Of a DNA stretch of 47,775 nucleotides, positions 1-45,198 are shown one piece after another (position 1 is the first letter of the stretch; the number at the start of each line of letters is the position of its first letter). The notes beneath the pieces are model-generated. The model saw only the letters and a list, made by a program, of their open reading frames with translations. It made no database searches and was not told where the DNA came from. The stretch comes from a phage. The position numbers and the translations under genes are program-made. The stretch lies in sequence record PZ445409.1, one strand, 5' to 3'.

Positions 1-1569
1 ATGATCATATGGGAAGATTTGACGGCGGCGCAAAAGCGAGCCATTAAAGAAATCAGTGAGCATTCATTCGAAAAGATGATCAGAATCTGGTTCCAGTTAT
101 TGCAGGGGCAAAAATTCCAGAGTAACTGGCATTTTAGCTTATTGTGCAGTGAGGTAGAGAAGATCATCAATGGAGAGTCGCAGAATGTGATTTTCAATAT
201 TACGCCAGGTAGCGGTAAGACTGAGATTTTCTCGATCCACATGTCACCCTACGCGTCATTGAAAAGCCGGAAGGTGAGAAATCTTAACCTTTCGTTTAGT
301 GATGGCCTTGTCCAGCAAAACAGCAACCGGATAAAGGAGATTATTGGTTCTCCTGAGTGGCAAGAGCTATGGCCAGGAAAACTGGCAAAGGCGAGCGCTA
401 AAGATCTGATAGTCACCGAAGGCGGCAAGGTTAAATTGCAAGTTAACTCACGTTCTATTGGCGGCCAGGTAACAGGTTTGCGTGGTGGCTATATGGACGA
501 TGGTTTTACTGGTATGCTGGTTCTTGACGATCCAGACAAGCCGGATGATATGCTTTCTAAGGTAAAGCGTGAGGCTATCCACATGCGGTTAAAAAACACA
601 GTGCGATCGCGTCGAATGAAAGACACAACTCCGATTGTTATGGTGCAACAGCGACTACACGTTAATGATTCCACCTGGTTTATGCTTAATGGCGGGATGG
701 GTGGTATTGAGTTTAAAGTCGTGAGCATTCCGGCGCTGGTTACGAAAGAATACCGCGAAACGCTTCCTGATTGGTTGAAGCCTGAATTTGATCGTGATGT
801 GCTATCAAGTAAGCCAGTGATGATAGATGGCGTTGCTCATTATTCATTTTGGCCTGCAAAGGAAAGCGCGGAGGAATTGCTTGCATTGCGCAATGCAGAT
901 CCTTACACGTTCGCCAGCCAATACCAACAGCAACCAATCGCGCTGGGCGGGAACGTGTTTAAAACAGAGTGGTTCCAGTATTACGGCAGCGGCGAAAAAT
1001 GCGCACTACCAAAACCTGATCGCTTTGAATACACATTTATTACTGGAGATACCGCGCAGAAGGCCGGAGAGCTTAACGACTATTCAGTTTTTTGTTATTG
1101 GGGGATGTATAAGAATCGCGTTTACTTCATTGATGGCATTCGCGGAAAGTGGGAAGCGCCGGATCTTGAATTAAATTTTATTGCCTTCGTTAACCAGTGC
1201 TGGAAGCGCAATAAGGAGTGTGGCAGCTTGCGACGTATCCACATTGAGGATAAGGCCAGCGGCACGGGTTTGATTCAGGGGGCCAAAAAGAAGATCCCGA
1301 TTGATATAAATCCCGTTCAGCGAAGCAATGACAAGGTGACGCGAGCAATGGACGCCGCGCCAGTAATGAGGGCCGGACGTGTGGCACTGCCAGAAAATCA
1401 CCCCATGCTGCCTGAGATACTAGCAGAGGTTGCAGCATTCACTTTTGATGATTCTCATCCCCATGATGATATTGTCGATAATATAGTTGATGCTGTTAAC
1501 GTCGAAATGAATTTGGCAGATGATCCGGTAGCAAGGATGAAAAAGCTGGCAGGTCTACGCAATAAATAG
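1..1569 (+). CDS. terL: terminase large subunit
   Basis: 522-aa ORF; N-terminal P-loop-like PGSGKT and acidic DDPDKPDD motifs; ATG at 1-3 overlaps the terS stop reconstituted across the window ends; hairpin+T-run follows. Confidence 0.85.
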   Translation: MIIWEDLTAAQKRAIKEISEHSFEKMIRIWFQLLQGQKFQSNWHFSLLCSEVEKIINGESQNVIFNITPGSGKTEIFSIHMSPYASLKSRKVRNLNLSFSDGLVQQNSNRIKEIIGSPEWQELWPGKLAKASAKDLIVTEGGKVKLQVNSRSIGGQVTGLRGGYMDDGFTGMLVLDDPDKPDDMLSKVKREAIHMRLKNTVRSRRMKDTTPIVMVQQRLHVNDSTWFMLNGGMGGIEFKVVSIPALVTKEYRETLPDWLKPEFDRDVLSSKPVMIDGVAHYSFWPAKESAEELLALRNADPYTFASQYQQQPIALGGNVFKTEWFQYYGSGEKCALPKPDRFEYTFITGDTAQKAGELNDYSVFCYWGMYKNRVYFIDGIRGKWEAPDLELNFIAFVNQCWKRNKECGSLRRIHIEDKASGTGLIQGAKKKIPIDINPVQRSNDKVTRAMDAAPVMRAGRVALPENHPMLPEILAEVAAFTFDDSHPHDDIVDNIVDAVNVEMNLADDPVARMKKLAGLRNK

Positions 1570-1598
1570 CACTAATTGCTAAAAAGTTATATAATCAA

Positions 1599-1623
1599 GG
1601 CTGGATTTTTCCAGCCTTTTTTA
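1599..1623 (+). terminator. intrinsic terminator after terL
   Basis: Hairpin ggctggatttttccagcc followed by T-run. Confidence 0.5.
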
Positions 1624-1639
1624 TTATGGAGATTTGACT

Positions 1640-4822: not shown

Positions 4823-5332
4823 ATGGCTAAAATTGGAGCAAGTTATTTTGACACTATGGCGCGCGCGCTTCCTGGTCAGGTATCCGACACGTCGGCATAT
4901 AACATCGACGGCGCTTGCGTCCTTGACAAGGAAGACGGCATCCCAATCCTGGTTGGCGTGGCTGTTAAGCTAAAAGGCGTTGACTCAATGGGTAATAAGC
5001 TGATCGACGCTATTTCTGGTGGTGGTGATGTTCCTTATGGCGTTGGCATCCGCTCGCACTTTCAAACTACGGCTGATAATGGTCGAATGGTTTATGAGGC
5101 TGGCGGCGGAATCAACGTTATGACTGAGGGCCGTGTCTGGATGATTGGCGATGATTCCGATAAAAGCAAAAAGCCAGAATATCGTGATCCTGTAAAAATT
5201 GATGAAAACTCTGGCAAGGTGAAAAGTGCTGGCGCTATCAATACAAACTGGGTTTACACTGGCGATAAAACCACTTTTGGAACTGGCAATAATATGTTGA
5301 CTTTGTTTGAAGTTCAGGTCTTCCCAAGCTAA
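4823..5332 (+). CDS. head accessory/decoration protein (paralog 1)
   Basis: 169-aa ORF, AAGGAG RBS; shares YNIDG...GVxIRS...GxVW motifs with the next ORF; hairpin+T-run terminator at 5339-5363. Confidence 0.4.
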   Translation: MAKIGASYFDTMARALPGQVSDTSAYNIDGACVLDKEDGIPILVGVAVKLKGVDSMGNKLIDAISGGGDVPYGVGIRSHFQTTADNGRMVYEAGGGINVMTEGRVWMIGDDSDKSKKPEYRDPVKIDENSGKVKSAGAINTNWVYTGDKTTFGTGNNMLTLFEVQVFPS

Positions 5333-5338
5333 AATCAA

Positions 5339-5363
5339 GGCGCTCGCTTGAGCGCCTTTTTTA
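5339..5363 (+). terminator. intrinsic terminator
   Basis: Hairpin ggcgctcgcttgagcgcc + TTTTTT. Confidence 0.6.
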
Positions 5364-5382
5364 TTATGTAAGGAGAAATGAA

Positions 5383-6165
5383 ATGGCTAAAGATTATTCA
5401 TCTGTCATGGGTCTTTCTTGCCCTGGTTGTTTGGTTGATTCTACTCGCTACAATATTGATGGTACTGGCGTTTGTGGTTCTGAATCGATCATTGCTGGAA
5501 AGGTTGTTTTCTTTAAAGAAAGAGTTGAAGGTTACAACATATTTGTTGATCACAAAGAGGGTGACGCTGTGGTTGCTGGTGTTGCTATAAGGAGCAATAT
5601 CACGACAACGGTTAACGAGGAAGACGGATACTCTGACTATAAGGAAGGAGATTCTATCAACATTTTAACAAGAGGGGTTGTATGGTGCTTAACTCAAACG
5701 ATTGAGTCTGCGCCTGAGCATGGCGATCTTGTTTATGTTAACAATGATGGTTTTGTAGCAAGTAGTGATGGGGATGAAATCGTCGATGGCTGGATTTTTA
5801 CTGGTGACTTTTACAAGTTTGATGAAACAATGAACATAGTCGGAGTCAGAATAACGCCGCTTCATCATAGAAAATACCTTCTTACTGGTGCGATTATTGA
5901 GGCCGAAAATGGTTACGTAGAGGGAACAGAAACAATTGACAACGTTCAGCTAAAAGTAACCGTTGTTCCAACATGGGCTGACGACAAAACGGGGCAGTGG
6001 ACGATTACAAACGAGCAAGATCCAAAGGTTGCAAGCGTTAGTCGCACTGGCCTTGTAGTTCCTACTGGGGTAGGCGGACATGTTAATGTTAACTGGACTG
6101 CAAACGACGGTTCTGGAGTTGCTGATCAGTTTGACATAGTGTTCAGTAAAACAGTAGGCACTTAA
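5383..6165 (+). CDS. head accessory/decoration protein (paralog 2, C-terminal extension)
   Basis: 260-aa ORF, AAGGAG RBS 7 nt upstream; N-terminal half paralogous to 4823-5332; C-terminal about 90 aa beta-rich, possibly Ig-like. Confidence 0.4.
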   Translation: MAKDYSSVMGLSCPGCLVDSTRYNIDGTGVCGSESIIAGKVVFFKERVEGYNIFVDHKEGDAVVAGVAIRSNITTTVNEEDGYSDYKEGDSINILTRGVVWCLTQTIESAPEHGDLVYVNNDGFVASSDGDEIVDGWIFTGDFYKFDETMNIVGVRITPLHHRKYLLTGAIIEAENGYVEGTETIDNVQLKVTVVPTWADDKTGQWTITNEQDPKVASVSRTGLVVPTGVGGHVNVNWTANDGSGVADQFDIVFSKTVGT

Positions 6166-6191
6166 TGAATACCACAAAATAGATTTGCACC

Positions 6192-6208
6192 TTTAACAAA
6201 AAGTGCTA
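6192..6208 (+). promoter_or_regulatory. inverted copy of conserved element upstream of capsid gene
   Basis: TTTAACAAAAAGTGCTA flanked by TTGCAC (6185-6190) and TATCAT (6207-6212) with 16-bp spacing; followed by hairpin+T-run 6215-6241. Confidence 0.45.
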
Positions 6209-6214
6209 TCATGA

Positions 6215-6241
6215 GGCTGTTACTTGTTAACAGCCTTTTTT
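6215..6241 (+). terminator. intrinsic terminator/attenuator immediately upstream of capsid gene
   Basis: Hairpin ggctgtta-cttg-ttaacagcc + TTTTTT, 16 nt before capsid ATG. Confidence 0.5.
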
Positions 6242-6256
6242 ATAGGAGAAAAAATC

Positions 6257-7231
6257 ATGACAAAGAAAAAATATGATGAGCTAGACGCTTCCATTGTGTC
6301 TAATCACCTGCAATTGCAAGGTGTTAAGGGTGATGCTTCCGACATGGGTATTTGGACTGCTCAGGAGTTGCACAAAATCCGATCCACTGCTTACGAAAAA
6401 GAGTATCCAGCGGGTTCTGCGCTTCGCGTCTTCCCTGTCACCAATGAACTGAGCGACACCGACAAAACTTTCGAGTATCAGACTTTTGATAAAGTTGGTT
6501 ACGCGAAAATTATTGCAGACTACACCGACGACCTGCCGACCGTTGACGCTCTTATGACTTCTGAGTTTGGCAAAGTGTTCCGCATGGGTAACGCTTTCCT
6601 GATCTCAATTGACGAAATCAAAGCAGGTCAGCGAACTGGTAAAAGCCTTTCTACTCGCAAGGCTAACGCAGCGCAGAATGCACATGATCAGCTTATTAAC
6701 TTCCTGGTTTTCAAAGGTTCCAAGCCTCATAAGATCGTTTCCGTTTTCGATCATCCAAACCTGACTAAAATCACGTCAAAAGGATGGCTGAGTAAAGACG
6801 GAAACACAAAGTTTCCAGAAGTTGCAAGCGATGAGCTGGAGACTGCAATCGAAACGATCGAGGAAGTAACCAAAGGTCAGCATCGCGCGACTAACATCCT
6901 GATTCCGCCGTCTATGCGTAAAGTCCTTACGGTTCGAATGGAAAATACCACTGAAAGCTATTTGGAATACTTCCAGAAGCAAAACGACGGTATCACCATC
7001 GACTCCATTGCAGAGCTTGAGGATATTGACGGCAAAGGCACTAAAGGCTGCCTGGTTTACGAAAAAGATCCAATGAACATGAGCATTGAGATCCCGGAGG
7101 CATTCAATATGCTGCCTGCACAGCCGAAAGATCTGCATTTTAAAGTTCCTTGTACTTCAAAGTGCACTGGCCTTACAATTTACCGTCCGTTTACGATGGT
7201 TCTAATTACTGGCTTGAAAAAGGCTGCGTAA
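6257..7231 (+). CDS. major capsid protein
   Basis: 324-aa ORF starting at ATG 6257 with AGGAG RBS (track ORF 6224 starts inside a hairpin); position after decoration genes; strong terminator 7243-7272. Confidence 0.7.
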   Translation: MTKKKYDELDASIVSNHLQLQGVKGDASDMGIWTAQELHKIRSTAYEKEYPAGSALRVFPVTNELSDTDKTFEYQTFDKVGYAKIIADYTDDLPTVDALMTSEFGKVFRMGNAFLISIDEIKAGQRTGKSLSTRKANAAQNAHDQLINFLVFKGSKPHKIVSVFDHPNLTKITSKGWLSKDGNTKFPEVASDELETAIETIEEVTKGQHRATNILIPPSMRKVLTVRMENTTESYLEYFQKQNDGITIDSIAELEDIDGKGTKGCLVYEKDPMNMSIEIPEAFNMLPAQPKDLHFKVPCTSKCTGLTIYRPFTMVLITGLKKAA

Positions 7232-7242
7232 TTAGATAACAT

Positions 7243-7272
7243 GGGGAGCCTTAATGGTTCCCCTTTTTTTTA
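7243..7272 (+). terminator. intrinsic terminator after capsid gene
   Basis: Hairpin ggggagccttaatggttcccc + T9. Confidence 0.7.
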
Positions 7273-7289
7273 TTTACGGAGTACACAAA

Positions 7290-7556
7290 ATGAGCAAAAC
7301 TTTAAAACTTAAAGTAACTGGCGTTTGCATGATTATTATGAACGGTAAGCGTTATCATCCTGGTGATGAAATTGAAATTGAATCCGAACGCATTAATGAT
7401 TCCGCAATTGAATACCTGATCGCTCGCGGAGATGTGGAAGTTAAAGACAATTCAGAAATTAACGAGCAAATCAAGGAGAAAGCGGAGAAGAAGCGCAAAA
7501 AAGATCCTACCGAGGGTAAGAGCCGCAAAGAGCTAGAGGATGGCGGCGAATATTAA
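7290..7556 (+). CDS. hypothetical protein (lysine-rich C-terminus)
   Basis: 88-aa ORF from ATG 7290 with GGAG RBS; track start 7254 lies inside the upstream terminator. Confidence 0.5.
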
Positions 7557-9882: not shown

Positions 9883-9887
9883 AACAA

Positions 9888-9909
9888 GGGGCGTTGCGCC
9901 CCTTTTTTC
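9888..9909 (+). terminator. intrinsic terminator after major tail gene
   Basis: Hairpin ggggcgttgcgcccc + TTTTTT. Confidence 0.65.
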
Positions 9910-9948
9910 ATTCCTGTAAAATCAATCTATCAAATAAATTAATTCCAC

Positions 9949-9966
9949 TTTTAACAAAAAGTGCTA
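9949..9966 (+). promoter_or_regulatory. inverted copy of conserved element abutting RBS of chaperone G
   Basis: TTTTAACAAAAAGTGCTA ends 2 nt before AAGGAG RBS; 15 nt before ATG. Confidence 0.45.
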
Positions 9967-9981
9967 TAAGGAGATCTTGAG

Positions 9982-10299
9982 ATGGCAAAGATGAAACTAA
10001 CGTTAGGCCCACTGCCTGATTTTAAACTGCCTGTTTCTTTCGTGCTTCCAAATGGTGATGAGCAAGTTATTGTTTTCACTGTGCGCCACAAGAAGGCAAG
10101 CGAGATTCACGAACGATACACGGCAGAAAAGCCGATGAGCGACGTAGAAATGATCACCTTCCTTGCTTCCGGTTGGGATCTGGAAGATGAATTTAACGAG
10201 GAAAACGTTGCTAAATTGCTGGATTATTACCCTTCTGCGTCATTATCGCTGACTGGTCATTATATGAAAGCACTTGCGGGGCAGCGGGTAAAAAACTAA
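9982..10299 (+). CDS. tail assembly chaperone (G)
   Basis: 105-aa ORF immediately before tape measure; ends at slippery heptamer A_AAA_AAC (10290-10296) then TAA. Confidence 0.7.
   Translation: MAKMKLTLGPLPDFKLPVSFVLPNGDEQVIVFTVRHKKASEIHERYTAEKPMSDVEMITFLASGWDLEDEFNEENVAKLLDYYPSASLSLTGHYMKALAGQRVKN
10290..10296 (+). other. -1 programmed ribosomal frameshift slippery heptamer A_AAA_AAC
   Basis: Heptamer sits 1 codon before the G stop codon; -1 frame continues open to 10616. Confidence 0.65.
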
Positions 10300-13690: not shown

Positions 13691-13695
13691 TTTAA

Positions 13696-13719
13696 AGCCG
13701 CCTTTGTGCGGCTTTTTTC
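13696..13719 (+). terminator. intrinsic terminator
   Basis: Hairpin agccgcctttgtgcggct + TTTTTT. Confidence 0.6.
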
Positions 13720-13752
13720 TTGATGTTACAATGAGCAAAAAGGAGGTAGAAA

Positions 13753-14514: not shown

Positions 14515-15245
14515 TGATTAGTGCAAAAGTTAAACTTGAAATAATGCAGCACGTTAAAGAGGAATACCCTAAAGAGGCTTGCGGCGTCATAACTCAAAAA
14601 TCACGGGTACAGAAATATCACCGCATAACCAACGTGCATGACGATCCAGAAAATCATTTTGAAATGGACGCCGTAGAATACGCTGAATCGCTCGACAAAG
14701 GCGAATTAATCGCGGTGGTGCATTCCCATTGCGGGGATGGTGCTAGCACGATACCGAGCGCGCACGACTCATGTATGTGCGATGAAATGGGTGTGTCGTG
14801 GATTATAGTGTCATGGCCAGAAGGTGATATGAGAATTGTCGAGCCGCAGGAGAGGCCGCTTATCGGTCGCCCGTGGTCGCTGGGGTCGTTCGATTGCTGG
14901 GGTCTTATCATGGCATGGCATAAACAGCACGGAGTAGTATTGAATGACTTCCGAAAGCCTTACGAGTGGTGGAAGTCAGAATATGGTGAAAATCTTTACC
15001 AGGATAATTATTTGAAAGAGGGATTTGTTGAAACTAACGAGCCTCCAAAACCTGGTGATATGGTGATTATGCAGCTATCATCGCCAGTCTGGAATCATGC
15101 GGGGATTTATTTGGGTAACAATCAGCTATTACATCATGCGTTTGGAAAGCTATCTCGCATTGACTTGTATTCTGGATGGTATCAGGAGCACACTGTAAAA
15201 ATTTGCCGACATAAGGATCTGAAATATGACATTGAAAGTAATTAA
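14514..15245 (+). CDS. tail assembly protein K-like (JAB/MPN + NlpC/P60)
   Basis: 243-aa ORF from ATG 14514 (TAATG overlap); HSHCGDG...S..HD JAB-like motif and DCWGL...H Cys-His pair. Confidence 0.6.
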   Translation: MISAKVKLEIMQHVKEEYPKEACGVITQKSRVQKYHRITNVHDDPENHFEMDAVEYAESLDKGELIAVVHSHCGDGASTIPSAHDSCMCDEMGVSWIIVSWPEGDMRIVEPQERPLIGRPWSLGSFDCWGLIMAWHKQHGVVLNDFRKPYEWWKSEYGENLYQDNYLKEGFVETNEPPKPGDMVIMQLSSPVWNHAGIYLGNNQLLHHAFGKLSRIDLYSGWYQEHTVKICRHKDLKYDIESN

Positions 15246-15822: not shown

Positions 15823-15829
15823 AAAAATA

Positions 15830-15851
15830 CCCGCCTTGCGCGGGTTTTTTT
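15830..15851 (+). terminator. intrinsic terminator before J gene
   Basis: Hairpin cccgccttgcgcggg + T7. Confidence 0.6.
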
Positions 15852-15900
15852 GTGCATTTATAATGTGCAAACCAAGAAACAGCACAAAAGGTTAAAAGTC

Positions 15901-18900
15901 ATGGCTAAATATATGATAAGCGGCAGTAAGGGCGGAAGCAAAAAGCCATACGTGCCAAAAGAGATGGAAGATAACCTGATCTCGATAAACAAGATTAAAG
16001 TTTTGCTGGCTGTATCTGATGGCGAGTGCGATCCAGATTTCACGTTGCGTGATCTTTATCTTGATGATGTTCCGGTTATTGCCAGCGATGGCACTGTTAA
16101 CTATGAGGGTGTAACGGCTGAATATAGACCAGGCACACAGACGCAAGATTACATCCAGGGGTTTACTGACACATCAAGCGAGGTGACAGTTTCGCGAGAT
16201 ATTACAACAGACAATCCCTATATTATATCTGTAACAAATAAAAATCTTTCTGCAATCAGAATCAAGATTCTGATGCCAGTTGGCATAAAACAGGAGGATA
16301 ACGGCGATCTTGTTGGTGTAAGGGTTCAATATGCTGTAGATATGGCTGTTGATGGCGGTTCTTATAACGAGGTTATGAGAGATGTAATTGACGGCAAGAC
16401 AAGATCAGGGTATGACCGCAGCAGAAGGATTGATCTTCCTAAGTTTGATGAGCGCGTTTTAATCAGAGTCAAGCGACTGACTCCAGATAGCACATCTTCA
16501 AAGGTTACTGATAAAATCAAACTGCAAAGTTACGCTGAGGTTGTGGATGCAAAATTCCGTTATCCTCTGACTGGCCTTGTATTCGTAGAATTTGACAGCG
16601 AATTGTTTCCTACACAAATCCCTAACATTTCTATAAAAAAGAAATGGAAGATTATTAATGTGCCAAGCAACTACGATCCAATATCAAGAGAATATCACGG
16701 GTCATGGGATGGGACTTTTAAAAAAGCGTGGTCAAATAATCCTGCATGGGTTCTTTATGATCTGGTAACTAATCAGCGTTATGGACTTGACCAGCGAGAG
16801 TTAGGAATACAGATCGACAAGTGGAGCTTATACGAGGCTGGTGTTTACTGTGATCAGAAAGTTCCAGACGGTAAGGGCGGTACAGAGCCTCGCTACCTAT
16901 GCGATGTGGTGATCCAGAATCAGGTTGAGGCTTATCAGCTAATCCGTGACATTTGCTCAATCTTTCGCGGAATGAGCTTTTGGAATGGTGAGAGCTTATC
17001 AATCGTGATTGATAAGCCGCGCGATCCATCATACGTGTTTACTAATGAAAACGTCATCAACGGTGATTTTCAGTACACAACCGCAAGCGAAAAAAGCATG
17101 TACACGCAGTGTAACGTGACGTTTGACGACGAACAAAACATGTATCAGCAGGACGTAGAGGGGGTTTTTGATACTGAGGCGGCATTACGATTTGGATACA
17201 ATCCAACAAGCATTACAGCGATCGGGTGTACACGCAGGAGCGAAGCGAATCGTCGCGGTCGGTGGGTTTTGAAAACAAACCTTAGAAGCACTACTGTAAA
17301 CTTTGCTACCGGACTAGAGGGGATGATTCCATCAATAGGTGATGTGATTGCTATCGCTGATAATTTTCAGAGTAGCAACCTAACGTTAAACCTATCGGGC
17401 CGAGTGATGGAAGTTTCAGGATTGCAGGTTTTCGTTCCGTTTAAGGTTGATGCTCGTCCTGGTGATTTTATTATCATCAACAAGCCGGACGGCAAGCCAG
17501 TTAAGCGCACGATCTCAAAGGTTAGCGCAGACGGAAAAACCATTGAGTTAAATATTGGATTTGGTTTTGATGTTAAGCCTGATACTGTTTTTGCGATTGA
17601 CCGTACTGACCTTGCGTTGCAGCAATACGTTGTGACAACTATCAGCAAGGGTGATGACGAAAATGAGTTTACCTATTCAATAACGGCTGTAGAGTACGAT
17701 CCGAACAAATACGACGAGATTGATTATGGAGTAAACATTGATGACAGGCCGACTTCAATTGTTCAGCCTGACGTAATGGCAGCGCCTGAGAACGTGCAAA
17801 TCTCATCTTATTCTCGCGTCGTGCAGGGTGTCAGCGTTGAGACTATGGTTGTGTCGTGGGAAAAAGTGCCTTATGCGTCACTGTATGAAATGCAATGGCG
17901 AAAAGGTGATGGCAACTGGCTAAATACGCCGCGCACAGCGAACAAAGAGACGGAAGTAGAAGGGATTTATTCAGGGAACTATCAAGTAAGGGTCAGATCT
18001 GTTTCAGCTTCCGGCAGTACATCAGCATGGTCGAAGATTGCAACAGCTTCCCTGACTGGTAAAGTTGGCGAGCCAGGCGCGCCAGTTAACTTAACCGCAT
18101 CAGATAATGAAGTTTTCGGCATTCGTATTAAATGGGGCATGCCAGAAGGAAGCGGAGACACGGCCTACATTGAGCTTCACCAGTCGCCAGACGGAACGGT
18201 TGAAAACTCAAGCCTGTTAACGCTGATCCCATACCCGCAATATGAATACTGGCACAGTACACTACCAGCGGGTCAGGTTGTCTGGTATAGAATCCGCAGC
18301 GTTGACAGAATCGGCAACGTTTCTAGCTGGACTGATTTTGTTCGTGGCATGGCATCAGATGATGTTGAATCTGTTTTAGGAGATATTCTTGATAAGATTT
18401 TTGATAGCGAAGCAGGGCAAGAAATCAAGGAGAACGCCATCGAAAGCGCGAACAAGATCAAAGACCAGGCGCAGGCAATAATCCAGAACGCTTTGGCGAT
18501 TGACGCTAACTTGAAATGGACGCGAGTACAGAACGGAAAGCGAAAGGCTGAATATGGTCATGCTGTTCAGTTGATCGCAAATGAGACTGAGGCGCGAGTA
18601 ACTCAAATCGAAGAATTGAGGGCTTCAATTGATGGCGAGATAACATCAAGCATCAAGACAGTGCAGGAGGCAATCGCCACTGAATCAGAGACACGAGCAA
18701 CTCAAATTCAGCAGCTTGATTCTAAATTCACAAAAGAAATTGACGGCGTGCGCAAGGACACTTCTGCAAGCATTAGCGATGTAAGGCAGACAATCACTAA
18801 CGAGTCAGAAGCGCGAGCGCAAGCGGTACAACAGCTTGATGCAAAATTCACCAAAGAGATTAATGATCTCAATGATGCAATCAAGGTTGACGTTGAGGCC

Positions 18901-20758: not shown

Positions 20759-21128
20759 CATGTTATTTTTTGTTTTCCGGTGTTATCGGATTTAAGACGG
20801 CGTAAATTTAGCGCAAATTTTAGCCAACATAATAACAATAAATAATCAATAAAATAGATATATACATATAAAATCAATAGTTTATTTATTTATGTATGTA
20901 TATTTGTTTTTTCTTGTTATCTGTGTTCCTTGTGGTTTTGGTTGTTTGTGGTGATTTTTCTTTCTGAGTATCTGTATGTGCCATCATTCATGTGTATGTA
21001 TATAATCCGGCGTATCTGAGAGAACAAGGGAACAAGAAAAATAACACATATTAATCATTAACTTACGAGTCAAATTTGTTTTATTGCCATATGAGAACGT
21101 TTAGAAAACAGAAAAAACAAATCACCTA
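20759..21128. repeat. AT-rich regulatory region A with alternating Pu/Py (GTATGTATAT) blocks and T/G-rich core
   Basis: Noncoding; shares TTCCG-GATAAC elements, GTATsTATAT blocks, T/G-rich core and GGGAACAAGAAAAA (21028-21041) with region B in the same orientation. Confidence 0.5.
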
Positions 21129-24205: not shown

Positions 24206-24484
24206 TTAAGCCCATTCTCTAATAGGCTGATCTAACTCAACCACGTAGTCGTTAAAAATTACGGCATCAAACTTATCATCAATGATTCGCACATTGACGA
24301 AATAGCCGTCGTTCTTTTGCGCAATCTCCTCGCCATCGTCAGATCGTGCAATTACTGTGTAAGTAGTGCCGATTACATCAAGCATGATAGCGTTTTGAAG
24401 CTCATCATTATCATGCCATTCGATTTCGTCCAGAAAGGCGGAAAACTCCGCCTTGTCTACAAATTTCAGTGTTAAATCGCGCAT
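24206..24484 (-). CDS. hypothetical small protein (fibre-associated)
   Basis: 92-aa ORF from ATG 24484 with TAATG overlap to tail fibre stop (track start 24625 lies inside the fibre gene). Confidence 0.45.
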   Translation of the reverse strand: MRDLTLKFVDKAEFSAFLDEIEWHDNDELQNAIMLDVIGTTYTVIARSDDGEEIAQKNDGYFVNVRIIDDKFDAVIFNDYVVELDQPIREWA

Positions 24485-26451
24485 TATACAATTTCCCCTA
24501 ATTGATGATCTGTTAATTCTTTGTGCCAAATACGCAAGTTCTTGACGTGTCCGAAAAGATGGAGTTCGCCTGTACTTGTTTGTCCGCCAATCCTTATAGT
24601 AGCCGTTGATACTATATATCTCCATTCCGTTTTTGTTTCGCTTGATATTCTGGCATTACTTACACAACAAGTATTGTAATCACTCTTTACTCTCATTCCT
24701 ATGATCATCTTTTTTAGTTTCGCATTCTCGTTAACCCTTCTGTTTGATTTACCTATATCGCAATAAGGGAATCCATCAGCATCGCCTTCGGCAGACCCGA
24801 AAGCAAGAATAATTCCCGCACCAGATTGATGACCTCCAGTATCGAAAACACGAGGCGCAGCATTTGGCGTTCTACTCCAGTTTTTATGAGCCTCCACAAG
24901 AACTGTAAACGGCAAATTGTAAAGGTTGTTTTTTATTGGCACTGTAACCATATCGCTTGCCCTTGTAACTGGCTTATCGCCAGTTACAATTAAAGACGAA
25001 GCAGATGATCCGTTTTCAACTTGGGCGGTAGCTAGAGTCATAAATTGACCTGCGGTAACATCCTGACCTTCCCTTGCTGCCATCTCAACGCGAGCATACA
25101 TCTTTATATCTTCTGGTGCTTTATATGTACCCTGGAATAATACCCATCCACCTGATTCCTGCTTCACATCATACGTCAACTTATTTCCTCCAGTCACATC
25201 AAGAGTGACAAGATCTAACATCACGTCAGCTATAAATGTGTTTCCCTGCCCATCAGGATTTAGCTTGGAGAATCGCAATCTTAACCTAACTGGTGAAGAA
25301 TATTCCTCGCCGATTCTTGCGCGTATTGAGATAGTACCATACTCACCATTCGCAACATCCACTACGCGAGATACACCAGTTGAAATTGCTGTAATCGGTA
25401 CAGTATCTTGACTTTCTTTATAAGTAAATTTAGCGGAAGTTATACCAAATTCATCTGTAGAATTAGCGGATACGTCCAACCTATTTAAGTTTCTATTCCA
25501 TTTGTCCGGTGAATTGCTATTACTGAAGTTGTTTGTTCTCTGCCCTTCAATCAGCAATCCATCTCTTTCAAAACGTGGTTCATCAATTGCTGCAACGGTA
25601 AGAATACCTGATTTGTTAATGTATGTTGCAGTTGATGCACGTTTAAATTTGACAATCTTGTCGCCCGGCATCGTGATCTCATCGTCACCTATGACAATCT
25701 TTTTGTATGACGGCGAGAATCCGGTAATCATATCCAGGGAATCATTAAATGGTATCCACACGTCCGGCAACGGTTGCAATAAGTCTTTGTAAGGTTCTGC
25801 GGCCTGCTTTGCGTATTCCTCCGCTTGATCTCGCGCACTTTCAGCTCCTGCCTTTGCAGTTTTCGCAGCGTCACGCGCGGATTCAGCGCCAGACTTTGCT
25901 GCTTCAGCGCCAGTCTTTGCAGTGTTTGCAGCGTCGCGCGCGGATTCAGCGGCAGCCTTTGCAGTATCAGCGCCTTTCTTGCTATTCGCTGCATTTGTTG
26001 CGCTTGTCTTCGCGCTATTCTCGCTGGTTTTAGCTGCCTGCTGGCTTGCTGCTGCTGCGTCAGCATTTGTCTTTACGTCTTCTTGGATCTTCTGTAGCTT
26101 ATCCCAATCAAAATCCTTGATGATCTCAATAAATCCAGCAAGCTCCGACTCTTTCCCCATGTAGTAGCGCAATGTTTCCGCTACGTCTTGCGCCAGGCCA
26201 TCAACAGTTAACGAGTCATGAAGCAAGATTATGTAGTCTGAACGGGGAACAACAGCACCACCAGTGGTGATTGCTCGAATGCTAGTATCGTTGACCACTT
26301 CGGTGATAACTGCGGCCTGTAGCGGCTGTGTCAGAAAAATAATGGTTGCGCCGGAACGGATCAGCGTTAACTGCTCACGCCAGTTCGTCCCGTAGCCAGT
26401 TATATAGCCTTGAGCGTCCATTGACGCTTGACCTTTGCGATAAATTGCCAT
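24484..26451 (-). CDS. side (L-shaped-like) tail fibre protein
   Basis: 655-aa ORF from ATG 26451 with AGGAGA RBS; Ala/Lys/Glu-rich coiled-coil segment after a conserved-looking N-terminal domain; beta-rich distal part. Confidence 0.65.
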   Translation of the reverse strand: MAIYRKGQASMDAQGYITGYGTNWREQLTLIRSGATIIFLTQPLQAAVITEVVNDTSIRAITTGGAVVPRSDYIILLHDSLTVDGLAQDVAETLRYYMGKESELAGFIEIIKDFDWDKLQKIQEDVKTNADAAAASQQAAKTSENSAKTSATNAANSKKGADTAKAAAESARDAANTAKTGAEAAKSGAESARDAAKTAKAGAESARDQAEEYAKQAAEPYKDLLQPLPDVWIPFNDSLDMITGFSPSYKKIVIGDDEITMPGDKIVKFKRASTATYINKSGILTVAAIDEPRFERDGLLIEGQRTNNFSNSNSPDKWNRNLNRLDVSANSTDEFGITSAKFTYKESQDTVPITAISTGVSRVVDVANGEYGTISIRARIGEEYSSPVRLRLRFSKLNPDGQGNTFIADVMLDLVTLDVTGGNKLTYDVKQESGGWVLFQGTYKAPEDIKMYARVEMAAREGQDVTAGQFMTLATAQVENGSSASSLIVTGDKPVTRASDMVTVPIKNNLYNLPFTVLVEAHKNWSRTPNAAPRVFDTGGHQSGAGIILAFGSAEGDADGFPYCDIGKSNRRVNENAKLKKMIIGMRVKSDYNTCCVSNARISSETKTEWRYIVSTATIRIGGQTSTGELHLFGHVKNLRIWHKELTDHQLGEIV

Positions 26452-26469
26452 CTGTAATTTTCTCCTGTA

Positions 26470-26488
26470 TAGCACTTTTTGCTAATGA
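26470..26488 (-). promoter_or_regulatory. inverted copy of conserved element abutting RBS of side tail fibre gene
   Basis: Coding (minus) strand reads TCATTAGCAAAAAGTGCTA then tACAGGAGA RBS then ATG at 26451. Confidence 0.45.
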
Positions 26489-30523: not shown

Positions 30524-30563
30524 CACTTTTTGTTAAAACTGGCGCGATGGATTGCGCCATAAT
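30521..30563 (+). promoter_or_regulatory. phage promoter unit (element + spacer + CATAAT)
   Basis: TAGCACTTTTTGTTAAAAC begins with VRR-NUC stop TAG; hexamer 30558-30563; upstream of dam. Confidence 0.6.
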
Positions 30564-31333: not shown

Positions 31334-31591
31334 ATGAAAAAAGAGAGAAGCGTTTATTTAAATGAAACTGGCGAATGGTTGTTATTTCGCGCTATGGTGT
31401 GCGATGCACTTGATAAAAATCCTAACGTGAAAAAGATGATTGATTGCGATCCGTGGGAATTTTCAAGCGCATTAGATATGAGCTTTGAGGAGACAAGAAA
31501 ACTCCCGCTTGAAAAATGGCACGAACAAATCAGAAATGACATGCAAGAGTTTGTTGATTCGTGGAATTTTCAGCACGGAATGATCCACTAA
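31334..31591 (+). CDS. hypothetical protein
   Basis: 85-aa ORF with GGAG RBS; its TAA stop is directly followed by promoter unit 31592-31634. Confidence 0.5.
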   Translation: MKKERSVYLNETGEWLLFRAMVCDALDKNPNVKKMIDCDPWEFSSALDMSFEETRKLPLEKWHEQIRNDMQEFVDSWNFQHGMIH

Positions 31592-31634
31592 TAGCACTTT
31601 TTGTTAAAACGCCCGGCCTAGTGTCGGGCATAAT
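31592..31634 (+). promoter_or_regulatory. phage promoter unit (element + spacer + CATAAT)
   Basis: Element directly after TAA stop; 18-bp spacer gcccggcctagtgtcggg identical to the minus-strand unit at 34810-34852. Confidence 0.6.
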
Positions 31635-31667
31635 TATTTCAACGAAGCAAACATGAGGAAATAAAAA

Positions 31668-34773: not shown

Positions 34774-34809
34774 AATTTTACCTTTTGGTTGTTTCGTTTC
34801 GATGAAACA

Positions 34810-34852
34810 AATATACCCGACACTAGGCCGGGCGTTTTAACAAAAAATGCTA
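34810..34852 (-). promoter_or_regulatory. phage promoter unit (element + TATATT)
   Basis: Minus strand TAGCATTTTTTGTTAAAAC + gcccggcctagtgtcggg + TATATT; inverted near-identical copy of 31592-31628. Confidence 0.6.
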
Positions 34853-35044
34853 TTCCATACGCTTTACCGTAACCAGTAATACACCATCATCATTGCATAA
34901 AACATGTTCAGTGGTGCTAAAAGCGCGCATATCTGAATAAAGTAGCGTAAGTAAAGCATGAATAAAATCCTCATGTGATATTGAATTTACGGCGCAGTGC
35001 TTCAAGATCTTGTCTATTAGCTTTTGCCTGGAACAATTCATCAT
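34850..35044 (-). CDS. hypothetical small ORF (alternative frame)
   Basis: 64-aa ORF whose TAG stop is the TAG of the conserved promoter element (as for several other genes); overlaps 3-prime end of 34971-35366 by 74 nt in another frame. Confidence 0.25.
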   Translation of the reverse strand: MMNCSRQKLIDKILKHCAVNSISHEDFIHALLTLLYSDMRAFSTTEHVLCNDDGVLLVTVKRME

Positions 35045-36946: not shown

Positions 36947-36973
36947 TAAATCGACTCCTATTTGGTGCGGTGT

Positions 36974-37016
36974 ATGTTACCGCACCAATACTACCCTTAT
37001 TTGTCAAAAAGTGCTA
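36974..37016 (-). promoter_or_regulatory. phage promoter unit (variant element + TAACAT)
   Basis: Minus strand TAGCACTTTTTGACAAATA + 18 nt + TAACAT; upstream of ATPase gene. Confidence 0.5.
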
Positions 37017-41306: not shown

Positions 41307-41726
41307 TTGGTTGCAGTGGAGATAGTGAAACCTTCCCCTCTTGCCTCACTTTTCCGCCTGGCTGTCAGTGGTTGTTATGTTCCGTTTTCGCCTGTTCTTT
41401 TGTTGACCTTCCGCAAAATACGATAACAAAAAATAACAAACAATACCTATATAATACATTGAAAAATAAGGATTATTTATTTATATGTATCTATATATTC
41501 TCTTTTGTTATCTTGGTTATTGTGGTATTTGGTGGGGGTATATAGTTTTTGTGTATCTATATGTGTGTATGGGTATGTAGGGGCATATATATCTATATGG
41601 CACTTTCCGCGATAAAACTTCGATAACAAGCAATGATAACATTGATTTATAAGGAAAAATAACGCCCATATTGTTATTGTGCCACCATATAAAATTGATA
41701 AAACACGCGGGAACAAGAAAAAACAG
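41307..41726. repeat. AT-rich regulatory region B, paralogous to region A
   Basis: TTCCGC..CGATAAC at 41409-41427 and 41605-41627; GTATCTATAT blocks at 41487, 41553, 41589; T/G-rich core 41499-41545; GGGAACAAGAAAAA at 41709-41722. Confidence 0.5.
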
Positions 41727-42505: not shown

Positions 42506-42545
42506 CACTTTTTGCAAAAACAGATTGTCGGGCTTGCGGTATAGT
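42503..42545 (+). promoter_or_regulatory. phage promoter unit (variant element + TATAGT)
   Basis: TAGCACTTTTTGCAAAAAC begins with lipoprotein stop TAG; hexamer 42540-42545. Confidence 0.55.
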
Positions 42546-42576
42546 AAGCCCATCAACAACAAACGAGGATTAAATC

Positions 42577-43806: not shown

Positions 43807-43846
43807 CACGAATTGCTAAACGCGGGGTTATCGGCCCCGCTATAAT
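43804..43846 (+). promoter_or_regulatory. phage promoter unit (variant element + TATAAT)
   Basis: TAGCACGAATTGCTAAAC begins with kinase stop TAG; hairpin gcggggttatcggccccgc; hexamer 43841-43846. Confidence 0.55.
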
Positions 43847-45123: not shown

Positions 45124-45166
45124 TAGCACTTTTTGTTAAAACTTCCGCAAGGGCATTTGGTAAAGT
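45124..45166 (+). promoter_or_regulatory. phage promoter unit (element + TAAAGT)
   Basis: TAGCACTTTTTGTTAAAAC directly after TAA stop; hexamer 45161-45166. Confidence 0.5.
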
Positions 45167-45198
45167 GCCCTTATTGAAGCGAAACAGAGGAAAGCGCA

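What the first reader, a model, noticed from the sequence alone, without database searches (positions are those of the whole stretch)
6185..6256. Promoter-like sequence followed directly by an intrinsic terminator 16 nt before the major capsid start codon
TTGCAC-16 bp-TATCAT (6185-6212, spanning the inverted conserved element) is followed within 3 nt by a perfect hairpin (ggctgtta/taacagcc) and T6 (6215-6241), then the AGGAG RBS and capsid ATG 6257. A terminator between a decoration gene and the most highly expressed structural gene is unusual. It suggests attenuation or processive antitermination (lambda Q-like logic), or an mRNA-stabilising or processing hairpin.
Basis: partly seen in the sequence, partly recalled or inferred. 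Interest (0 to 1): 0.45.

Follow-up and report, generated by a model that had tools for sequence, protein, structure and literature searches.

The report
Capsid promoter abutting the upstream terminator
In this T1-like coliphage the capsid gene has its own conserved host-type promoter, and that promoter's predicted start point lies inside the terminator hairpin of the preceding gene, so the two signals probably act on different transcripts; the same layout is already annotated in phage T1 and is ordinary for this family.

Summary
TTGCAC (6185-6190), a 16-nt spacer and TGcTATCAT (-10 at 6207-6212) are followed by the hairpin GGCTGTTA/cttgt/TAACAGCC (6215-6235), T6 (6236-6241), AGGAG and the capsid ATG at 6257.

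The window is a T1-like phage (Drexlerviridae).

- **Promoter:** it is conserved in 44 distinct relatives, down to 55% capsid identity.
- **Hairpin:** it is kept by compensatory changes (6 of 9 pairs).
- **Prior annotation:** phage T1's GenBank record annotates the same promoter, terminator, RBS and capsid series. The TLS paper lists the orthologous pair as DR7 and T35.

The attenuation / lambda-Q reading fails on geometry. In 28 of 28 distinct coliphage-type relatives the hairpin begins 0-5 nt after the -10. An invariant G sits 7-8 nt after it, at the expected start site. Capsid transcripts therefore lack the 5' arm (-0.6 versus -12.8 kcal/mol) and should escape.

The hairpin most likely terminates transcripts arriving from the cement genes. 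Klebsiella relatives (Webervirus) have the same two elements in conventional order. The abutting layout recurs at 3 of 9 late terminators here and 4 of 10 in T1.

Unexplained: the promoter spacer is a near-invariant inverted copy of the family's 21-nt repeat. No transcript-end data exist.

The parts
5383..6165 (+). Upstream gene: capsid cement/decoration protein with a C-terminal Ig-like (Big_2) domain. Its transcripts are the ones the hairpin can terminate.
   Evidence: Pfam Phage_cement 2e-22 and Big_2 3e-6. The T1 orthologue is annotated 'IgG-domain-containing decoration protein'.
6168..6181 (+). A-rich stretch upstream of the -35 (window AATACCACAAAATA; family consensus aTAACAcAAAAA). Possibly an UP-element-like proximal subsite.
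   Evidence: Conserved in the alignment of 20 diverse relatives and in the 44 distinct upstream regions. The UP-like function is inferred only.
6185..6190 (+). -35 hexamer TTGCAC of the capsid promoter P(mcp).
   Evidence: TTG is invariant. Variants are TTGCAC, TTGAAC, TTGACG and TTGACC, always 16 (three times 17) nt from the -10. T1 annotates the orthologous 28-mer as a promoter.
6191..6209 (-). Inverted copy of the family repeat ATAGCACtttTTGtTAAAA. It forms the promoter spacer and the first three bases of the -10.
   Evidence: 18 of 19 match. The spacer columns are nearly invariant across relatives. It is orthologous to TLS DR7 on the negative strand and to T1 15068-15086 on the minus strand.
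6204..6212 (+). Extended -10: TGc + TATCAT.
   Evidence: The -10 variants TATCAT, TATATT, TATTAT and TATTCT all keep A at -11 and T at -7. Ordinary copies of the repeat read TATTTA, TATTAG and similar in this orientation.
6218..6221 (+). Predicted transcription start, most likely G6219, 7 nt after the -10 and inside the 5' arm of the hairpin.
   Evidence: Inferred from sigma-70 start-site geometry. The G of YGTT is invariant and lies 7 or 8 nt after the -10 in all 28 distinct coliphage-type relatives. No experimental mapping exists.
6213..6237 (+). Terminator hairpin (core 6215-6235, 8 bp, loop CTTGT).
   Evidence: -12.8 kcal/mol. Listed by the terminator scan. 6 of 9 pairs show compensatory double changes among 16 relatives.
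6236..6241 (+). T6 tract (U-tract of the terminator).
   Evidence: 23 of 28 distinct relatives have at least 4 T in the 6 nt after the stem. One has none and one has two.
6245..6249 (+). Shine-Dalgarno AGGAG, 7 nt before the ATG.
   Evidence: An RBS is annotated at the same place in T1.
6257..7231 (+). Major capsid protein gene.
   Evidence: PF09950, 1.4e-53. Relatives are annotated as major capsid/head protein.
7214..7271 (+). The same composite module after the capsid gene: TTGAAA-17-TAACAT (7214-7242) abutting the hairpin 7243-7263 and T8. It ends the capsid unit and probably starts the next one.
   Evidence: TTGnnn-17-TAnnAT abutting the hairpin is kept in coliphage-type relatives although the C-terminal coding sequence and the stop-to-hairpin distance differ.
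5307..5364 (+). The same composite module between the two cement genes: TTGAAG-17-TAAAAT (5307-5335), then the hairpin 5337-5358 and a T-run.
1566..1624 (+). Related module before the portal gene: forward repeat (its TAGCAC at the -35 position), 17 nt, TATAAT 1590-1595, then the hairpin 1597-1618 and a T-run.
   Evidence: Its conservation in relatives was not checked.

Best explanation
This is a composite junction between two late transcription units, not a regulated terminator inside one unit.

(1) P(mcp) is a host sigma-70 promoter of the extended -10 type, dedicated to the capsid gene. It consists of an A-tract, TTGCAC, a 16-nt spacer and TGcTATCAT.

(2) The hairpin plus T6 is the intrinsic terminator, probably leaky, of transcripts arriving from the upstream cement/decoration genes.

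(3) The hairpin starts 2 nt after the -10, so RNA polymerase starting at P(mcp) begins at about G6219, inside the 5' arm. Its RNA has only GUUA/UAAC left to pair. It cannot form the terminator and runs into the capsid gene until the strong terminator at 7243-7271. That gives a roughly 1.05-kb monocistronic capsid mRNA with an unstructured, U-rich 38-nt leader.

Shown: sequence anatomy, conservation, covariation, and recurrence of the layout. Inferred: that the promoter fires, where it starts, and that the hairpin terminates.
For: **Promoter.** The -35 TTG, the 16-17 nt spacing, TGn and a -10 with A-11 and T-7 are kept in 44 distinct upstream regions, including Webervirus phages whose capsid is only 55% identical. 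T-7 is present in this copy of the repeat but not in ordinary copies read in the same orientation. T1's GenBank record annotates the orthologous 28-mer as a promoter.

**Hairpin.** RNAalifold finds 9 pairs, 6 with compensatory double changes. My own pair table shows CG/UA at 12 versus 9 and GC/AU at 14 versus 8. T1 annotates it as a rho-independent terminator and TLS lists it as T35.

**Geometry.**
- The first G-C pair lies 0-5 nt after the -10 in 28 of 28 distinct coliphage-type relatives, and within 3 nt in 27.
- None places the hairpin at or beyond the start site.
- The invariant G sits 7-8 nt after the -10.
- RNA from 6213 folds at -12.8 kcal/mol. RNA from 6219 folds at -0.6, and from 6220 at 0.

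**Independent functions.** Webervirus has the same two elements in conventional order: terminator GGGGCTTCGGCCCC+ATTTTT, then about 20 nt, then the promoter, with no hairpin after the -10.

**Recurrence.** TTGnnn-N16-18-TAnnnT ending 0-3 nt before a hairpin occurs at 3 of 9 late terminators here and 4 of 10 in T1. The background is 0.39% of positions, giving binomial P of 5e-6 and 5e-8. The module after the capsid gene keeps its 17-nt spacing through indels.
Against: - No 5'- or 3'-end mapping exists for any T1-like phage in the paper library. The start site and termination are predictions.
- As a consensus match the promoter is unremarkable: 9 of 12, with site counts not above shuffles. The -35 matches only TTG and the spacer is 16 nt.
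- The T-tract is not universal. One relative has none and one has TT, yet both keep the hairpin. The hairpin may therefore have a role beyond termination.
- By a rough d-score, with the formula recalled from memory, this is the weakest late terminator in the window: 10 against 20-57.
- The model does not explain why the spacer is a near-invariant inverted copy of the family repeat.
- A-rich hexamers before terminators can arise simply as the A-tract of bidirectional terminators.
Confidence: 0.6

Rival explanations
1. Attenuation or processive antitermination (lambda Q-like). Transcripts from this promoter stop at the hairpin unless a phage factor, loaded at the conserved element between -35 and -10, makes RNA polymerase termination-resistant.
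For: A conserved, probably protein-recognised element lies exactly between the -35 and the -10, which is where lambda's Q-binding element lies. A terminator-like hairpin follows.
Against: - The hairpin begins 2 nt after the -10. A sigma-70 start 6-9 nt downstream lies inside the 5' arm, so the promoter's own RNA cannot fold it.
- No TAnnnT pause-inducing hexamer lies in about +1 to +20. The hexamers starting with TA there are TACTTG and TAACAG.
- T1's curated annotation lists no antiterminator.
- Rfam finds no put-like or other RNA.
- Webervirus has no hairpin between this promoter and the capsid gene.
Confidence: 0.05
2. The hairpin is mainly an RNA stability or processing element. It would be a 3'-end protective stem for the cement-gene mRNA, or an RNase site separating the units. 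Little true termination occurs, and the T-run in this phage is incidental or serves as a U-rich translational enhancer.
For: The stem is maintained by covariation even in relatives with no T-run (L036) or only TT (L023). More than half of the family's repeat-type promoters carry strong hairpins that mostly lack U-tracts, against 6% of random 40-mers. This terminator scores weakest in the window.
Against: 23 of 28 distinct relatives have at least 4 T in the 6 nt after the stem. The window, T1 and others have T6. Webervirus has an unmistakable terminator in the same intergenic region. The stem base is G-C rich directly before the T-run, as in working intrinsic terminators.
Confidence: 0.15
3. 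There is no promoter. The conserved block is only an inverted copy of the family repeat, acting as a protein-binding site such as a roadblock or 'stoperator'. The capsid gene would then be expressed by read-through from upstream.
For: The repeat is a family-wide element of unknown function, and the TLS authors suggested stoperator-like or enhancer roles. Consensus promoter matches are not enriched in the window.
Against: - The invariant TTG lies outside the repeat at a fixed 16-17 nt.
- Webervirus improves it to TTGACG or TTGACC.
- T at -7 is present in this copy only.
- A conserved A-tract precedes the -35.
- Read-through alone would have to cross a terminator to make the most abundant virion protein.
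- The other inverted copy (9949-9967) lacks both the TTG and T-7. This shows what a non-promoter copy looks like.
Confidence: 0.1
4. An addition to the best explanation, not an exclusive rival. The inverted repeat in the spacer is an operator through which whatever recognises the repeat at early promoters times or throttles the capsid promoter.
For: Spacer columns are nearly invariant over genera while the neighbouring stem covaries. Webervirus keeps the repeat there as the 'GAA' subtype. At early promoters the repeat sits a fixed 19 nt upstream of the -10, in promoters that lack a -35 at 17 nt. In P(mcp) it would cover about -28 to -10.
Against: No binding protein is known. The repeat read backwards supplies TGnTAT, so part of its conservation may simply be the extended -10. 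No expression-timing data exist.
Confidence: 0.3

Closest known systems
Phage T1 annotated promoter 15062..15089 and rho-independent terminator 15095..15121 before the major capsid gene (GenBank AY216660; the 'transcriptons' of Roberts et al. 2004, as cited in PMC11447400)
   Same: It is the orthologous site. The order is the same: Ig-decoration gene, promoter (TTGACG-16-TATTAT with the inverted repeat as spacer), hairpin plus T6, RBS, capsid gene, then a second terminator.
   Different: The hairpin sequence differs (AGCCGTGA/TCACGGT) and T1's -35 is closer to consensus. The record does not comment on the start site falling inside the stem or on the repeat forming the spacer. I could not read the 2004 paper.
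Phage TLS DR7 (negative strand, 15044..15024) and terminator T35 (15049..15069), Table S1 of PMC11447400
   Same: The same inverted repeat is immediately followed by a plus-strand terminator upstream of the capsid gene. The repeat consensus aaATAGCACnnnTTGnTAAAA equals the window's element.
   Different: The TLS authors did not call it a promoter. [quoted passage not shown] They leave the function open: stoperator, enhancer or UP element.
Webervirus (Klebsiella T1-like phages, e.g. KL, KingDDD) capsid upstream region
   Same: It has the same promoter with the inverted repeat in the spacer and a terminator for the upstream gene in the same intergenic region.
   Different: The order is conventional: terminator, about 20 nt, promoter, then an unstructured CA-rich leader. 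There is no hairpin after the -10. This shows that the two functions are separable.
Lambda pR'-QBE-tR' late antitermination module
   Same: A conserved element lies between the -35 and the -10 of a late promoter, with a terminator after it (lambda anatomy from my own knowledge).
   Different: In lambda the terminator lies about 190 nt downstream and is fully transcribed. A sigma-dependent pause at +16/17 and a Q protein are required. Here the hairpin overlaps +1, no pause hexamer is present, and no Q homologue is annotated in T1.
T7 gene 10 unit (phi10 promoter ... T-phi terminator)
   Same: The logic is the same: the capsid gene has a dedicated promoter just upstream and a strong terminator just downstream, which boosts it above its neighbours (my own knowledge).
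   Different: T7 uses its own RNA polymerase and has no terminator overlapping the promoter.

Membership tests
Sigma-70 promoter, extended -10 class | -10 hexamer with A at -11 and T at -7, preceded by TGn | tested here: met
   TGcTATCAT at 6204-6212. All orthologous -10 variants keep A-11 and T-7.
Sigma-70 promoter, extended -10 class | -35-like hexamer at 16-18 nt | tested here: met
   TTGCAC at 16 nt. TTG is invariant, and the hexamer is TTGACG or TTGACC in T1 and Webervirus.
Sigma-70 promoter, extended -10 class | Initiation by E. coli holoenzyme at a defined +1 | not testable with these tools
   No TSS data were found. G6219 is predicted from geometry and from the invariant G at 7-8 nt.
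Intrinsic (rho-independent) terminator | Stable G+C-containing stem-loop directly followed by a U-tract | tested here: met
   8-10 bp stem, -9.8 to -12.8 kcal/mol by the boundaries used (core 6215-6235 alone: -9.8), then T6.
Intrinsic (rho-independent) terminator | Pairing, not sequence, conserved in relatives | tested here: met
   6 of 9 pairs have compensatory double changes.
Intrinsic (rho-independent) terminator | U-tract conserved in relatives | tested here: inconclusive
   23 of 28 have at least 4 T in 6, three have 3, one has 2 and one has 0.
Intrinsic (rho-independent) terminator | RNA 3' ends form there | not testable with these tools
   No Term-seq or in vitro data are available.
Lambda Q-type antitermination module | Terminator wholly downstream of the promoter's +1, so that the promoter's own transcript meets it | tested here: not met
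   The hairpin starts 2 nt after the -10. 0 of 28 relatives place it at or beyond +1.
Lambda Q-type antitermination module | -10-like pause element in the initial transcribed region | tested here: not met
   6219-6245 holds no TAnnnT hexamer; the TA-starting hexamers there are TACTTG and TAACAG.
Lambda Q-type antitermination module | Q-family antiterminator gene | not tested
   None is annotated in T1. I did not scan every window ORF with HMMs.
T1-family 21-nt repeat (TLS 'DR', aaATAGCACnnnTTGnTAAAA) | Sequence match to the consensus | tested here: met
   18 of 19 on the minus strand at 6191-6209.
T1-family 21-nt repeat (TLS 'DR', aaATAGCACnnnTTGnTAAAA) | Points in the direction of transcription, with a -10 exactly 19 nt downstream | tested here: not met
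   It is inverted relative to the late genes. The hexamer 19 nt downstream on the minus strand is TATTCA here and TATACA in T1, with no T at -7 and no conservation. It is an atypical copy, like TLS DR7.

The most novel reading that the evidence does not exclude
Drexlerviridae may use a systematic 'start-inside-the-stem' syntax. Late promoters are packed against the terminator of the preceding unit so that only incoming transcripts can fold it.

The capsid promoter may in addition be wired to the early programme. Its spacer is an inverted copy of the 21-nt repeat that defines the family's -35-less early promoters. An unidentified factor that recognises the repeat, whether phage-encoded or RNAP-associated, would then switch early units on and hold the capsid promoter off (or the reverse). 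That would give this RNAP-less, sigma-less phage its early-to-late switch.
Probability: 0.25. Interest if true: 0.55.

Novelty: new member of a known kind. Interest (0 to 1): 0.3.

Why it matters
Practically, it gives annotators and phage engineers a rule. In coliphage T1-like genomes a terminator directly before a late gene does not mean the gene depends on read-through or antitermination. They should look for a promoter whose -10 abuts the stem.

It also defines a compact part of about 75 bp that both insulates a unit and restarts transcription.

Biologically, the open question is not the terminator but the inverted 21-nt repeat inside the promoter. T1-like phages encode no RNA polymerase or sigma factor, and how they time late genes is unknown. 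This promoter is the one place where the early-promoter repeat and a late sigma-70 promoter coincide.

Tried and rejected
- **Rfam scan of the whole window:** no family matched.
- **Literature search for TSS or RNA-seq data on T1-like phages:** none found. The one Drexlerviridae paper with transcriptomics sequenced a T5-like phage. The T1 genome paper of 2004 is not held.
- **Search for published precedents of start sites inside terminator stems:** the two candidate papers were not about that.
- **Antisense-promoter reading of the inverted repeat at 6191-6209:** rejected. The hexamer 19 nt downstream on the minus strand lacks T at -7 and is not conserved.
- **Palindromic-operator reading (TTGCAC-N12-GTGCTA):** rejected because Webervirus does not keep the symmetry.
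- **Minus-strand terminator reading of the hairpin:** rejected because no T-run follows it on that strand.
- **MAFFT alignment of the whole intergenic region:** it misaligned the 3' arms. I therefore counted pairs from per-sequence folds and from a hairpin-only alignment.
- **-10-like hexamers before terminators as evidence by themselves:** discounted because they can be the A-tract of bidirectional terminators. I required a TTG at 16-18 nt as well.
- **One protein-family call:** it failed on a wrong frame.

Full report
**What is there.** The window is a T1-like coliphage. Region 5300-7400 is 98.6% identical to Escherichia phage Jahat_MG145 and 84-97% identical to many Drexlerviridae.

- TTGCAC at 6185-6190, then a 16-nt spacer;
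- TG at 6204-6205, one base before TATCAT at 6207-6212;
- GA, then the stem GGCTGTTA (6215-6222) / TAACAGCC (6228-6235) with loop CTTGT;
- T6 at 6236-6241, AGGAG at 6245-6249 and ATG at 6257.

The downstream gene is a PF09950 major capsid protein. The upstream gene (5383-6165) is a cement/decoration protein with an Ig-like domain.

The consensus scan lists both the promoter-like site (9 of 12, TG present) and the hairpin. However, promoter-like sites are no more frequent than in shuffles, 36 against 30.5 +/- 5.2. A consensus match alone proves nothing.

**The conserved element.** Positions 6191-6209 on the minus strand are a copy (18 of 19) of ATAGCACTTTTTGTTAAAA, which occurs about 16 times in the window.

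In the non-structural regions the repeat points with the genes. It lies exactly 19 nt upstream of a good -10 (TATAAT, CATAAT, TATAGT, TACATT). A conserved CA-rich leader (CATCAACAACAAAC) and an RBS follow. These are evidently the family's early promoters. They have no -35 hexamer at 17 nt; the TTGtTA inside the repeat is 22 nt from the -10.

The repeat is published. The 2024 TLS re-annotation describes a 21-nt direct repeat aaATAGCACnnnTTGnTAAAA at 21 sites. It notes similar repeats in T1, Rtp and Rogue1 and leaves the function open: stoperator, enhancer site or UP element (PMC11447400).

**It is already annotated in relatives.**
- TLS Table S1 lists DR7 on the negative strand at 15044..15024, immediately followed by the plus-strand terminator T35 at 15049..15069.
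- The T1 GenBank record annotates, in order, the IgG-domain decoration gene, a promoter at 15062..15089, a rho-independent terminator at 15095..15121, an RBS, the major capsid gene and another terminator.
- The T1 sequence reads TTGACG-16-TATTAT, then tga, then AGCCGTGA/TCACGGT and T6.

So a terminator before the capsid gene is the family norm, not an oddity. The TLS paper cites the T1 genome paper for late 'transcriptons' flanked by terminators and containing promoters.

**Is the promoter real?** I fetched 78 loci encoding relatives of the capsid protein at 54-96% identity. Among 44 distinct upstream regions, all of the following are kept:
- the -35 TTG (TTGCAC, TTGAAC, TTGACG, TTGACC);
- the 16-nt spacing (17 in three);
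- TGn;
- a -10 with A-11 and T-7 (TATCAT, TATATT, TATTAT, TATTCT);
- an upstream A-tract (aTAACAcAAAAA).

The TTG lies outside the repeat. Ordinary copies of the repeat, read in this orientation, give TATTTA, TATTAG or TATTCC, without the essential T at -7. This copy has been shaped into a working -10.

The second inverted copy in the late region (9949-9967; T1 18832-18850) lacks both TTG and T-7 (TTCCAC ... TATAAG; T1 TATCAA) and abuts an RBS. It shows what a non-promoter copy looks like.

**Is the hairpin real?** In the coliphage-type relatives the stem sequence changes but the pairing is kept. RNAalifold on 16 diverse hairpins predicts 9 pairs, 6 with compensatory double changes, for example C-G versus U-A at 8:7 and G-C versus A-U at 11:5. 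Per-sequence folds of 24 distinct sequences agree.

A T-rich tail follows in most. 23 of 28 distinct sequences have at least 4 T in the first 6 nt, and the window and T1 have T6. One relative has none and one has only TT.

By a rough d'Aubenton-Carafa-type score, with the formula recalled from memory, the window's hairpin passes. It is nevertheless the weakest of the late terminators, 10 against 20-57. It is probably leaky.

**The geometry decides the mechanism.** The first G-C pair of the stem lies 0-5 nt after the -10 in all 28 distinct coliphage-type sequences, and within 3 nt in 27. None places the hairpin beyond the start site.

Sigma-70 polymerase starts 6-9 nt after the -10, most often at 7, preferring a purine after a pyrimidine (established knowledge). 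Here that is G6219.

The G and T of YGTT are invariant in a stem whose other positions covary. The G sits 7 nt (20 sequences) or 8 nt (7 sequences) after the -10. The one outlier in the table is a pattern-matching artefact in L002, where the G is also at 7. This fits an extra constraint as the initiating nucleotides.

RNA starting at 6213 folds the terminator at -12.8 kcal/mol. RNA starting at 6219 has -0.6, and from 6220 nothing.

Hence the promoter's own transcript cannot form the terminator. Only transcripts coming from upstream can. This removes the need for antitermination. It also excludes a 5' stabilising stem on the capsid mRNA.

**Independent support.**
- *Webervirus.* The Klebsiella T1-like phages have the same promoter, again with the inverted repeat as spacer. 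Their terminator (GGGGCTTCGGCCCC + ATTTTT) lies about 20 nt upstream of the -35, and an unstructured leader follows the -10. The same two functions appear in conventional order.
- *The module after the capsid gene.* In coliphage-type relatives TTGnnn-17-TAnnAT abuts the conserved hairpin even though the C-terminal codons and the stop-to-hairpin distance differ. In L007 a different TTG keeps the 17-nt spacing. Webervirus again has terminator-then-promoter there.
- *Recurrence.* Across the late region, TTGnnn-N16-18-TAnnnT ending 0-3 nt before a hairpin is found at 3 of 9 terminators here (5337, 6213, 7243). Site 1597 is similar, with the repeat's TAGCAC as its -35. In T1 it is found at 4 of 10. 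The background is 0.39% of positions, giving binomial P of 5e-6 and 5e-8.
- *A second interleaving.* The -35 TTGCGC sits inside the hairpin, the T-run is the spacer and the -10 lies downstream. This is seen at 15829 and 13694 and at T1 22793 and 24972.

**Most likely working.** Upstream late transcripts carrying the cement genes end, partly, at 6238-6243. RNA polymerase starting at P(mcp) begins inside the stem and reads the capsid gene to the strong terminator at 7243-7271. The capsid therefore gets a dedicated, insulated, monocistronic message. The logic resembles T7 gene 10 between phi10 and T-phi. I put this at about 0.6. The promoter and the RNA structure are well supported by comparison. 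Firing, start position and termination are inferred.

**What remains odd.** A sigma-70 spacer needs no particular sequence, yet this one is a near-invariant inverted copy of the early-promoter repeat across genera. Webervirus even keeps it as the 'GAA' subtype. Part of this may be the TGnTAT it supplies, but the far half (TTTAAC) is conserved too.

At early promoters the repeat sits at a fixed distance and orientation in promoters without a -35. That suggests recognition by RNA polymerase or an associated factor. In P(mcp) the same site would cover about -28 to -10, a repressing position. This may be how capsid expression is timed, but nothing tested here shows it.

In addition, more than half of the repeat-type promoters carry strong hairpins in the 19-nt spacer or flanking the -10: 8 of 15 here and 10 of 17 in T1, against 6% of random 40-mers. 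Most lack U-tracts, and their role is unknown.

**Verdict.** The feature is a conserved, already annotated promoter/terminator junction of T1-like phages. The start-inside-the-stem reading and its recurrence did not turn up in my paper search, but they are a modest extension of known signals. Interest is low to moderate.

Noticed in passing
window 9886-9984 (T1 L079 18770-18875): A second inverted copy of the 21-nt repeat (9949-9967, minus strand) lies directly before the RBS of the tape-measure chaperone gene and is conserved in T1. On the plus strand it is not a promoter (TTCCAC ... TATAAG, no T at -7). On the minus strand a -10-like hexamer (TAGATT; T1 TAAGAT) lies at exactly the 19-nt distance used by early promoters. 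It points into the bidirectional terminator 9886-9904. This may be a short antisense transcript or an antisense RNA to the tail-tube gene.
   Followed up: partly
window 28031, 30520, 31591, 34835(-), 36999(-), 37676(-), 40085(-), 41169(-), 42502, 43803, 45123 (repeat starts): The family's early promoters consist of the repeat ATAGCACtttTTGtTAAAA, exactly 19 nt, a good -10, then a conserved CA-rich leader (CATCAACAACAAAC) and an RBS. No -35 hexamer lies at 17 nt; the TTGtTA is 22 nt from the -10. How host RNA polymerase uses them is unknown.
   Followed up: partly
window 30540-30560, 31611-31629, 34816-34834, 36963-36989, 42530-42551, 43822-43840, 45149-45172; T1 L079 likewise: GC-rich hairpins are embedded in these promoters, either inside the 19-nt spacer or flanking the -10 and ending at -1. 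8 of 15 (window) and 10 of 17 (T1) have dG of -6 kcal/mol or lower, against 6% of random 40-mers. Most have no U-tract. They can form only in read-through RNA.
   Followed up: partly
window 13694-13745 and 15829-15875 (T1 L079 22793-22830, 24972-25010): This is a second way of interleaving. The -35 (TTGCGC or TTGTGC) lies in the loop and 3' arm of a terminator hairpin, the T-run serves as the spacer, and TATAAT or TACAAT follows 17-18 nt later.
   Followed up: partly
window 31590-31651 and 34793-34854: A 62-nt inverted repeat, 89% complementary, comprises two nearly identical convergent repeat-type promoters, including their spacer hairpin and leader.
   Followed up: no
window 25840-25965: Two tandem 63-nt copies (84% identical) lie inside the long minus-strand ORF 24484-26475. 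This is an internal duplication of 21 codons.
   Followed up: no
window 20828-20942 and 41473-41533: Related AT-rich stretches (TTATTTATTTATGTATGTATATTTG...) occur in direct and inverted orientation in the two largest ORF-poor gaps of the genome. Their function is unknown.
   Followed up: no
window 4823-5332 and 5383-6165: Two paralogous Phage_cement genes lie in tandem, the second with an added Big_2 Ig-like domain. A promoter/terminator module of the same abutting type (5307-5364) separates them.
   Followed up: partly
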